Shown in pieces: positions 38,901-41,900 of a stretch of DNA of 64,000 bases. Position numbers and translations under genes: made by a program. Location: NCBI GenBank assembly GCA_964016885.1, contig OZ024760.1, forward strand, positions 15,748,001 to 15,812,000, given 5' to 3'. The notes under the pieces are model-generated. The model saw only the letters and a program-made list of their open reading frames with translations, had not been told where the DNA came from and did no database searches. Source of the DNA: Eledone cirrhosa. Its lineage: Eukaryota. How positions within the stretch are numbered: position 1 is the first letter of the stretch; each line of letters begins with the position of its first letter.

Positions 38901-41900
38901 TTTGTAGCTGGCTGGCTGTTCTTGGAAGCTGCGAGTATATATATCGTGTGAGAGGTAAAAGTTTTAATGAGCAACAGCAACAATAACAATGGTAATAACG
39001 ATAACAACAGCAACAATAACAATAACAATATAAGCGACAATAACAACTACAATATAAGCGACAATAACAACTACAATATCAGCGACAATAACAACTACAA
39101 TAACGAGTCAACTAGGAACCCTCTATTCGGTCGCTCAACTTGCTAGAATTTTACCTGCACCCCCCCCCCCATCTCTCTCTCTCTCTCTCTCTCTCTCTCT
39201 CTCTCTCTCTCTCTCTCTCTCTCTTTCTTTATCTCTCTCTCTCTCTCTCTCTCTCTCTCTCTCTCTCTCTCTCTCTCTCTCTCTCTCTCTCTCTCTTTCT
39301 CTCTCTCTCTCTCTCTCTATACACACACACACACAATAACAAAATAAACAGAAACAGCGGGGATTTACAAATAAATAAAAATATCTAAACAAGCAAAACA
39401 GATAAATAAATAGAGAAGATGAACCTGGTTTCGTTAGCTGCTTCCATCTCTTCTGTGATTGATTGCCTGTCTCTCTGTTTTCCACACTGGCTAACATTTT
39501 ACCATTGTTCCATATCACATAGATAATTGTGGTATAGCATATGAGGATTATCATAGTTGGTATGATAAACAAAGCCACTGCTAGCAGGGTGATATATACC
39601 TGGTAGATAGATAGATATGAGAGATATATGATTGTATTGCTAGTAGGGTGATATATACTTGGTATATACACACACACACATATGTATGTATATATATATA
39701 TATATAAATGAATAATAAAAGAAAACAAGGACGAGTGGTTACTCTTTCGTTACGTTTATTGGTTGGTGACGCGCGTTTCACCACCGATCACCACAAGGTT
39801 CGATCTGTATCGATCTAGCCCGACTCTGTAATCCACGGCTCGTCAGACCCTTTTAGTAGTAATGAAAAAATCCCTGGGTGGATATATATATATATATATA
39901 TATATATATATATATATATATATATGTGTGTGTGTGTGTGTGTGTGTGTGTGTGTGTGTGTGTGTGTGTGTGTGTGTGTGTGTGTGTGTGTGTGTGTGTG
40001 TTCTTCTGGTTTTATAATTTCACAAATGTTTGCCAATAGAGAGTTGGTTTCTAACATAGATACAAGACTCTCTCATTGGAATTTACACATCAACTTGGTA
40101 GATATGTATGTATGTATGTATGTATGTATGTATGTATGTATGTATGTATGTATGTGTGTATGTATGTATGTATGTATGTAATAGTGAAGGCGCGTGGCTG
40201 AGTTGTTAGAGAATTGGATTCGCAATCGTGAGGTCTTGAGTAAGACACTTTATTTCACGTTGCTCCTTCTACCTAGATTTGCGACCGATAGATAGTATTA
40301 GCAATTGGAGAGACCAATGGAAACATTGTTTCCTCGGTCCGATTTGATGAAAGTCGATCGACTGTCGATATATATAACAACTACACACTCCACAACACGA
40401 ATACCGAATACATGCCCACTATTGCCTATCAAAAGCGATCTCGCTTTATATCTATCTATATATATGAATATATATATATATATATATATATATATATATA
40501 TATATATAGTCTATAAATGCTCTGTACTAACCCAAACAGTAAACGCTTGACCGCTATTCCCTTTAAGCTACGCAAAACGCAGCAATATTATACGTTTCGA
40601 AACTCAAATATATAACATCGTGTAGCTTAACTAGCTATATAGCGGAGAGATGTTAATCAAGTCAATCCATTTTTTTTTGCCATACCTCACCAGAATGCTT
40701 TTGGGTACAAAGAAGGCCCACATGAGAATAAAAACGAAATGATTAAATTATATAATTATACCATCCAGTGCCACTGTTCTGTTAGGTCCATATAACACAA
40801 TTTTATCGATTCGTCCACCGGGTTAGTGATTTCTTTGAACAGAAATAATGACGGACACGAGAAGATGATAGCAAAACCCCATGCAGACGCTACTAGGATC
40901 CGAGATCTCGTACCTGTGATAGAAGACAAAGAAAATAATGAATAGAGTATTAGGCTTTTTTGGTGCACATAAGGAAACACAGGATATTCATGGTTTTTAC
41001 AAAGGCATCAGTGGCGTAAGTAAAAAGAATGTAAAAAGAAAGTGGAAAGTCCCCAACCAGGAATGGAAACCATGCTTCGAAAAAAAGCTCACCTGCAGCA
41101 TAGGCTCTGCAATGTTTGCCACCGCTATAAGAATCTGTATATATATATATATATATATATATATATATACTAGCATTAAAGCCCGGCGTTGCTCGGGGTC
41201 AGTAAGTTACCAAAGTTAGATTGCACCACCCATTTTATGCCAGCACTTTTTTGTCTGCCAGGCACTGGGGGAATGAATTACAGACCTGGTCTACCGAAGC
41301 AGGAGCTGCACCAGCAGTGACAATTGTAATTTCGCCTATGGATATTATCTCTGTGCAAAGAAGTGTTGAAATTTATTTTTTCACAGTACTTACGCAACAC
41401 GCGCGTAGACGATGCCAGCCGAACAACAGAGCTGCGTTGGAGTTGTTCTGCATGGTTGTCTATTGTGTGTTTTCTAAATTTAAGACAGTAGGGAGTGGGG
41501 GGAGAGTTAGCTGCTGTTTCTAGCAGGTTTAGTGACCTCATAGAGGATATTATTGTGTATAGTAAATGAACTGATACTTCTTCCACGTTCGTTGATAGAT
41601 GTTTTAAAAAGATTTATCGCTATTTTTTTTGTTGTTGAATAAATTTATCTGTTGCTTTTGAATAATTGTTGTTTCGTATGAAATGTAATAAGTTCTCTTT
41701 GTCATTGAAGTAAATAAATGTTTGACCGTTCCACACTCAAAAACAAACGTTCCCTCTCTCTGTCTCCCTCTCACTCTCTCTCTCTCTTAAAGTTTGTAAG
41801 TTTAATCGTATATAAGAGAAAGTTGCAGCATGTATGTAGTTTTATCGAATTTTAAGGGGAGTAGAGAGAGTAAATCAGATTGTATTAGAGGGGTAAAGCC

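What the first reader, a model, noticed from the sequence alone, without database searches (positions are those of the whole stretch)
39724..39870. Family of short elements carrying a hammerhead ribozyme with an unusually long stem II (retrozyme-like)
Seen: the minus strand reads ggt-CUGACGA-[gccguggauuac ... gugaucgguggu]-GAAA-cgcgcg-UC-acc. This is a full hammerhead core with a GUC site and a self-complementary stem III. Stem II is about 12 bp (several G-U pairs) and encloses ~35 extra nt including a UCGAU/AUCGA hairpin. Homologous copies lie at 28226-28370, 13518-13665 and (3' half) 55548-55585, all next to (TA)n/(TAA)n. Pairing is kept while sequence changes: stem II base gcc/ggt vs gct/agc, stem I ggt/acc vs agt/act. 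Known: Penelope-like elements and retrozymes carry type I hammerheads with palindromic stem III that cleave as dimers, but stem II is normally short. Inference: a non-autonomous, ribozyme-processed retroelement family with an atypical hammerhead architecture that short-stem descriptors would miss.
Basis: partly seen in the sequence, partly recalled or inferred. Interest (0 to 1): 0.85.

Follow-up and report, generated by a model that had tools for sequence, protein, structure and literature searches.

The report
Long-armed hammerhead in Penelope retrotransposon ends
The short repeats are the end piece of a Penelope-like (Hydra-type) retrotransposon, and they carry a hammerhead ribozyme motif whose middle arm is several times longer than in related elements, with a predicted fold of its own; cutting of RNA is likely but untested.

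Summary
The motif is there: CUGACGA (39846), a 60-nt stem II domain, GAAA, a palindromic helix III and GUC (39768). But it is not a stand-alone retrozyme. The same 150 nt sits at both ends of 3-5 kb elements encoding a reverse transcriptase and C-terminal GIY-YIG endonuclease with the Hydra-clade motifs; the short copies are truncated or solo terminal repeats (pLTRs) of that element. Only 1 of 70 sampled copies is a head-to-tail pair, copies span the cleavage site, and their ends do not pile up there. What is new is the ribozyme. The long stem II recurs in many diverged families of this genome (4551 pattern matches, control 164), with compensatory changes in stem I, stem II and the palindrome, and a conserved GAGUC/GAGC internal loop. 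Hydra-type elements from other organisms have spacers of 10-26 nt. Against a central catalytic role: about half of family copies carry U4C, one mobile subfamily also A6U, the focal copy's lowest-energy fold is not the hammerhead, and no RNA data exist. Verdict: a new structural variant of a known ribozyme in a known retrotransposon clade.

The parts
39712..39871 (-). Focal copy: solo/truncated pLTR of a Hydra-type Penelope-like element (subfamily A1), from -104 to about +56 relative to the cleavage site, between (TA)n tracts
   Evidence: 5% from its subfamily majority
39840..39846 (-). Hammerhead core box CUGACGA
   Evidence: sequence
39780..39839 (-). 60-nt stem II domain: 8-10 bp basal helix, GA-rich internal loop (GAGUC / GAGC, mutated on the 3' side in this copy), 3-bp helix, GAUC/GAUC hairpin
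39768..39779 (-). GAAA box, 8-nt palindrome ACGCGCGU (helix III, predicted intermolecular) and GUC; predicted cut 3' of 39768
39847..39849 (-). Stem I 5' strand (GGU), pairs with ACC at 39767-39765
39859..39866 (-). Outer stem I (Ib) 5' strand, pairs with 39753-39746
   Evidence: fold; no covariation test run on this helix
39755..39760 (-). AAUAAA just 3' of the cleavage site, recurring in most families
28212..28374 (-). Second family A copy, core CCGACGA (U4C subfamily A4)
28381..28444 (+). Inverted 3' piece attached to the 5' end of the second copy
13494..13664 (-). Third family A copy, both core boxes decayed
55553..55585 (-). Short fragment (3' side of stem II, GAAA, palindrome, GUC); weak match, probably a related family
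31263..31500 (-). Family B copy with tail: CUGAGGA at 31476, 63-nt stem II domain of the same architecture
31500..31620 (+). Inverted piece of the family B copy

Best explanation
The element is the terminal repeat (pLTR) of a Hydra-type Penelope-like retrotransposon, and it is predicted to fold into a type I hammerhead with a 58-63 nt structured stem II domain that likely cuts only slowly, as a dimer or with protein help. Shown: the same unit lies before and after a 861-codon RT/GIY-YIG ORF; copies end at two places about 100 nt apart (near +55 and +157), against (TA)n; many 5' ends fall just upstream of the ribozyme; inverted pieces are common; the fold covaries across families. Inferred: the RT starts at two internal sites of an uncleaved RNA at nicked (TA)n, as shown in vitro for another PLE; when it starts in the leader copy of the pLTR it reaches the RNA's 5' end (likely an internal promoter about 105-115 nt before the cleavage site) after 160-270 nt, which gives the abundant short copies, and the cDNA end then often folds back to make the inverted piece. 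Inferred: two ribozymes pair through the 8-nt palindrome to complete helix III. Inferred: the conserved GA-rich loop is a docking or protein-binding module, and cleavage is accessory, since subfamilies with altered cores spread.
For: pLTR-ORF-pLTR copies L207, L208, L214, L217, L219, L220 (6 of 18 stretches fetched). ORF P0042 has RWR, DKT, DITMGS, CxCx5C, CxxC and CxH, the Hydra diagnostics in PMC8557442 section 11. In 70 copies chosen only by a 26-mer 3' of the cleavage site: 24 start at -116 to -96, 41 at -95 to +12, 5 further upstream; 52 end at +40 to +69 and 18 at +125 to +164, ATG at +200; 28 have an opposite-strand piece. Families B, B3 and C2 mostly start 30-39 nt before the core. Two internal RT start sites, an optional tail, uncleaved RNA as substrate and protein-assisted cleavage are reported for the anole PLE (PMC11167929). 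On 44 copies 82% of cells pair against 74.4% shuffled (0/500) and 30-39% in slid registers; both-side changes in 7/7 stem I, 5/8 stem II and 2/2 inner palindrome pairs. RNAalifold with RIBOSUM on 13 family majorities recovers stem I and the stem II domain. Palindrome duplex -13.3 kcal/mol.
Against: Default RNAalifold on the 44 decayed copies predicted no pair, and on the 13 majorities only the stem II domain. The counts of pairs with both-side changes and of pair types did not beat shuffles (245/500, 401/500), related sequences inflate the other measures, and the inner helices show almost no both-side change. The focal copy's minimum-energy fold (-36.4) is far below the hammerhead fold (-23.9). 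In 6 of 11 ORF-linked copies with a 5' hammerhead piece, that pLTR reaches further upstream than -116 (read), so a start site at -105 does not explain all 5' ends. Subfamily A5 has CCGUCGA or a decay of it in 8 of 8 copies, in both pLTRs of L217 and L220. Element length (3.1-4.8 kb between pLTRs) exceeds the <3 kb typical of Hydra.
Confidence: 0.72

Rival explanations
1. Same element and fold, but the clustered 5' ends come from RT stalling or cDNA fold-back at the outer stem I, not from an RNA start; short copies are ordinary 5' truncations begun at the 3' pLTR.
For: The cluster (-116 to -96) overlaps the 5' strand of stem Ib; several inversion junctions fall in its self-complementary arms (L121, L120, L144); longer copies run on into the UTR.
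Against: In families B and B3 the ends lie 10-16 nt beyond the outer stem; both units of the L151 pair start at -104 and -112; the D. virilis element has an internal promoter in its pLTR (PMC2377424 passages).
Confidence: 0.35
2. The short copies are a self-propagating non-autonomous family (SINE- or retrozyme-like solo pLTRs) mobilised in trans by the Hydra ORF.
For: No ORF-linked copy among 26 A3 and 11 A4 copies; one head-to-tail pair without ORF (L151); vertebrate retrozymes derive from pLTRs (bioRxiv 10.64898/2026.07.22.740005).
Against: 7 of 26 A3 and 2 of 11 A4 copies run into the PLE UTR, and 2 of 67 A1 copies into the endonuclease; the ORF searches were seeded with other subfamilies, so the absence is weak; no arrays.
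Confidence: 0.2
3. The hammerhead is vestigial: the long domain is kept as an RNA signal for the ORF protein, or as a DNA promoter element, and nothing is cut in vivo.
For: U4C in about half of family A cores (10 CCGACGA against 11 CTGACGA in register among 37), A6U in A5; U4C lowers and A6C nearly removes activity elsewhere (PMC3088659 passages); no ends at the cleavage site (4 of 70 within 4 nt, two of them deletions).
Against: 4551 copies with both boxes and a GUH at the right spacing against 164 in the control; the core, C3-G8 and A15.1-U16.1 persist while all flanking helices turned over (core columns of non-A families were required by the search pattern).
Confidence: 0.2

Closest known systems
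Hydra clade of Penelope-like elements (Craig et al. 2021, PMC8557442; includes Hydra-1_Obim)
   Same: C-terminal GIY-YIG, RWK-like, DKT, CxCx5C, CxxC, CxH motifs, (TA)n target, pLTRs, inverted 5' pieces, type I hammerhead with ac..gt palindromic helix III and often a mismatch at the base of stem II.
   Different: Listed Hydra hammerheads have at most about 26 nt between the boxes (File S2); here 58-63 nt with an extra structured module. Elements are longer and the tail is about 100 nt rather than 30-40.
Minimal PLE hammerheads (Cervera and de la Pena 2014, PMC4209133)
   Same: [quoted passage not shown]
   Different: Their helix II is closed by a short loop; here it continues into a 40-nt multi-loop domain.
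PLE-X1 hammerheads of spike mosses (File S2 of PMC8557442)
   Same: About 50 nt between the boxes, marked as deviating from the canonical structure: a precedent for a long stem II in a PLE.
   Different: Unrelated EN-minus plant elements, single families, no conserved inner motif reported in the rows I saw.
Non-LTR retrozymes (PMC7229834; bioRxiv 10.64898/2026.07.22.740005)
   Same: Short, non-coding, type I hammerhead, related to pLTRs.
   Different: Retrozymes are tandem repeats with a ribozyme in each unit and circular RNAs; these copies are solo or inverted, with ends away from the cleavage site.
Poseidon element of the anole, PAc (PMC11167929)
   Same: Two 3' ends matching two internal RT starts, AT-rich target, hammerhead in the leader, copies made from uncleaved RNA.
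   Different: Other clade; its ORF starts inside the ribozyme, here 200 nt after the cleavage site.

Membership tests
Type I hammerhead ribozyme | CUGANGA, GAAA and NUH in order | tested here: met
   focal copy; subfamilies A3/A4 have U4C and A5 U4C+A6U
Type I hammerhead ribozyme | Three helices around the core, stem I open, supported by covariation | tested here: met
   default RNAalifold on raw copies found none
Type I hammerhead ribozyme | Rfam Hammerhead_1 gathering score | tested here: not met
   19.7 bits against 34, on the 3' half only, 1 of 4 loci; none among the 150 best of 241 window matches
Type I hammerhead ribozyme | Self-cleavage at the NUH site; stem I-stem II tertiary contact | not testable with these tools
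   needs in vitro assay and probing
Hydra clade PLE | Single ORF, RT then C-terminal GIY-YIG endonuclease | tested here: met
   Pfam itself gave no hit on P0042
Hydra clade PLE | RWK, DKT, CxCx5C, CxxC and CxH motifs | tested here: met
   P0042 read against the paper's list; RW followed by R
Hydra clade PLE | pLTRs, inverted 5' pieces, tail, (TA)n insertion | tested here: met
Hydra clade PLE | Generally under 3 kb, with a canonical short hammerhead | tested here: not met
   3.1-4.8 kb between pLTRs; 60-nt spacer. Described as general traits, not as diagnostics
Hydra clade PLE | Phylogenetic placement with named Hydra references | not tested
Non-LTR retrozyme | Tandem repeats with a hammerhead in each unit | tested here: not met
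   1 head-to-tail pair in 70 loci; 2 more same-strand copies 0.8-1.2 kb apart
Non-LTR retrozyme | No coding capacity in the family | tested here: not met
   ORF-bearing copies; open for subfamilies A3/A4
Non-LTR retrozyme | Circular monomer RNA | not testable with these tools
   no RNA holder listed
Naiad clade PLE | N-terminal endonuclease, DKA | tested here: not met
   endonuclease is C-terminal, motif is DKT

The most novel reading that the evidence does not exclude
A natural modular hammerhead in an animal genome: a lineage of Hydra retrotransposons grafted a structured 40-nt module with a conserved GAGUC/GAGC loop onto stem II, and this module binds the element's own protein (or docks on stem I) to switch cleavage and mark the RNA for reverse transcription. 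Long-spacer hammerheads of this kind may also account for the 'HHR half core' entries in Naiad elements said to lack the ribozyme.
Probability: 0.25. Interest if true: 0.8.

Novelty: new variant of a known kind. Interest (0 to 1): 0.55.

Why it matters
What hammerheads do in Penelope-like elements is an open question (stated in PMC8557442). Here one genome holds thousands of copies in many families with spacers from 12 to over 100 nt, subfamilies with intact and altered cores, and a conserved add-on domain: a ready series for testing whether cleavage, dimer pairing or protein binding is what is selected. It also shows that descriptors capping the spacer at 17 nt (the relaxed core search of PMC8557442) miss a large class, and that many short 'SINE-like' repeats in such genomes may be solo pLTRs.

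Tried and rejected
Naiad origin (suggested by 'HHR_half_core' in Naiad_Ovul): rejected, the endonuclease is C-terminal; two family motifs gave no relevant match in the held, cut supplement. Nematis, my first guess from recalled motifs: dropped. Pile-up of ends at the cleavage site, suggested by L009: not found. An intron in the 60-nt insert: no plausible splice sites by eye. The CCGAGGA..GAAA match at 25533/40337: a different abundant repeat, no palindrome or stem I; taken as chance. Pfam gave nothing on five ORF pieces or P0042. The repeat finder was swamped by microsatellites. No RNA holder listed; three non-RNA contig sets laid on L207 show far more depth on the pLTR than on the ORF, but the tool says this is no copy number, so I do not use it. 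A constrained two-molecule fold crashed and was replaced by the palindrome duplex energy. Earlier findings of this scan: none by sequence or words. PMC5785218 and PMC5850863 were not held, so I could not check them for long-stem variants.

Full report
Observation. The minus strand carries GGU, CUGACGA (39846), 60 nt, GAAA (39779), the palindrome ACGCGCGU, C17 at 39768 and ACC. The copies at 28.3 kb and 13.6 kb are real but have a U4C core and a decayed core; the 55.5 kb piece is weak. An inverted piece (28381-28444) and a related family B pair (31350-31611) were missed. Single copies fold no better than shuffles. The genome is 3.0 Gb; the only named relatives among 41 protein hits are from Argonauta and Octopus, so an octopod-like host is my inference.

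What the element is. The best 40 of 2970 first-look candidates were scored at 91-94% identity. Some copies ran upstream into a shared UTR, and following it led to a GIY-YIG endonuclease and RT on the same strand. Searching with the ORF start gave elements with the hammerhead unit before and after the ORF: 6 of 18 stretches fetched, 3.1-4.8 kb apart. L218 has an open frame of 861 codons (P0042) with RWR, DKT, DITMGS, CxCx5C, CxxC and CxH, which match the Hydra diagnostics in PMC8557442 and align with 13 homologs. Hydra-type RT also lies downstream of family B and C ribozymes in 3 loci. The 150-nt element is therefore a pLTR.

How the short copies arise. An exact 26-mer 3' of the cleavage site has 161 matches, control 0. 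I examined 70 of them: the first 30 and 40 of the next 48; the 8 left out were already held. Two pairs are arms of one inverted insertion, and one locus (L116) matched itself as reference. 5' ends: 24 at -116 to -96, 41 spread over -95 to +12, 5 further upstream; 4 lie within 4 nt of the cleavage site, as the background density predicts, and two of those are deletions. 3' ends: 52 at +40 to +69, 18 at +125 to +164, mostly into (TA)n; the ATG is at +200; 28 have an opposite-strand piece; one is a head-to-tail pair. This is the pattern of two internal RT starts on uncleaved RNA reported for the anole element. I favour a defined RNA 5' end for the cluster, since families B, B3 and C2 end at a like distance, but stalling at the outer stem I is a close rival, and 6 of 11 ORF-linked 5' pLTRs extend beyond it.

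The ribozyme. A pattern with both boxes 56-66 nt apart and an A/T-edged palindrome has 4551 matches against 164 reversed; it excludes families A and B and, in the 100 rows shown, includes other long families and a few chance pairings. Requiring GAGT 12-13 nt after the core leaves 2224 against 0. On 44 copies picked to span the families (of 136 held) the named structure pairs in 82% of cells against 74.4% shuffled and 30-39% slid; cells with both sides changed number 109 against 50; stem I 7/7, stem II 5/8 and palindrome 2/2 pairs have such changes; two of five measures did not beat shuffles. Default RNAalifold found nothing on these decayed copies; on 13 family majorities it gave the stem II domain, and with RIBOSUM also stem I (-32.6 against -9.7 +/- 2.6 for column shuffles, a lenient control). 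The GAGU strand was part of my pattern, so its invariance is not independent; its partner GAG was not and is kept in 12 of 13 majorities, and rows, which did not ask for it, show GAGUC/GAGC in further families with different stems. The inner helices are conserved in sequence rather than covarying.

Comparison. In 77 Hydra-type loci from metagenomes, 55 have a hammerhead; 61 of 65 hits have spacers of 10-25 nt and 4 have 135-156 nt, which look like chance pairings (8 hits on the opposite strand); none has about 60, and the model built here matches them only at the core. Published Hydra motifs reach about 26 nt; two spike-moss PLE-X motifs reach about 50. So the long arm is a derived feature of this lineage with a distant precedent. 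Searches for it in print found no description; two relevant papers were not held, the supplement of PMC8557442 is cut and preprint supplements are closed.

Against a central catalytic role. Subfamilies A3 and A4 mostly have U4C and A5 has U4C plus A6U in both pLTRs, on several chromosomes. U4C lowers activity in vitro yet supports a viroid, and A6C leaves low activity. The focal copy's hammerhead fold is 12.5 kcal/mol above its minimum, of which the palindrome duplex (-13.3 per dimer) recovers about half; for family majorities the gap is 0.5-9 kcal/mol. The focal copy itself is an old insertion, 5% from its majority and mutated in the conserved loop, and lies on the sense strand between two receptor exons.

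Papers seen: PMC4209133 parts 1-2 of 4; PMC8557442 passages, section 11, supplement part 2 of 59 and search hits; PMC11167929 parts 1-2 of 4; bioRxiv 10.64898/2026.07.22.740005 part 1 of 5 and passages; passages only of PMC2377424, PMC7229834, PMC10085705, PMC3088659, PMC13282606. Hammerhead numbering and the G12A control are recalled.

Verdict. Real motif, known clade of retrotransposon, new ribozyme architecture; not a retrozyme by the tested features. Interest 0.55.

Noticed in passing
window 41007-40759 and 33926-33432 (-): Two exons of a rhodopsin-family receptor (7tm_1, E 0.005 and 4e-6); the focal copy lies between them on the sense strand, so the host pre-mRNA would carry the motif.
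   Followed up: partly
window 28050 (+), 60068 (+), 43290 (+), 51137 (+): Short-spacer hammerhead motifs (30, 14, 19 and about 15 nt) of other abundant families; the first two recur in many loci with palindromic helix III.
   Followed up: partly
L014:2256(+), L086:2128(-), L093:298(+), L028:857(+), L093:808(-): Hammerheads with still longer spacers (72, 88, 90, 102, 114 nt) and an AC..GU palindrome but no GAGUC loop; apparently independent lengthenings.
   Followed up: no
window 2368-2772 (+): Decayed endonuclease fragment of another Hydra-type element (39% to P0042, E 1e-20).
   Followed up: no
window 25500-25720 (+) and 40150-40340 (-): A young, abundant short repeat (2672 candidates, best 40 at 97-98%), SINE-like by eye.
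   Followed up: partly
L069-L080, window 31490-31500: Family B insertions on different chromosomes share one inversion junction at a 7-nt self-complementary word (my query included it), as cDNA fold-back would give.
   Followed up: partly
family A and L272-L348: AAUAAA or AUUAAA sits 0-10 nt 3' of the cleavage site in most families here and in many metagenome Hydra loci, so cleavage would separate a poly(A) signal from the upstream RNA.
   Followed up: no
window 8436-7927 (-): An open frame that looks like an exon of a methionine aminopeptidase (recalled resemblance; no Pfam hit).
   Followed up: no
window 59751-59910 and 31007-31099: Near-perfect long inverted repeats, probably fold-back insertions of other elements.
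   Followed up: no
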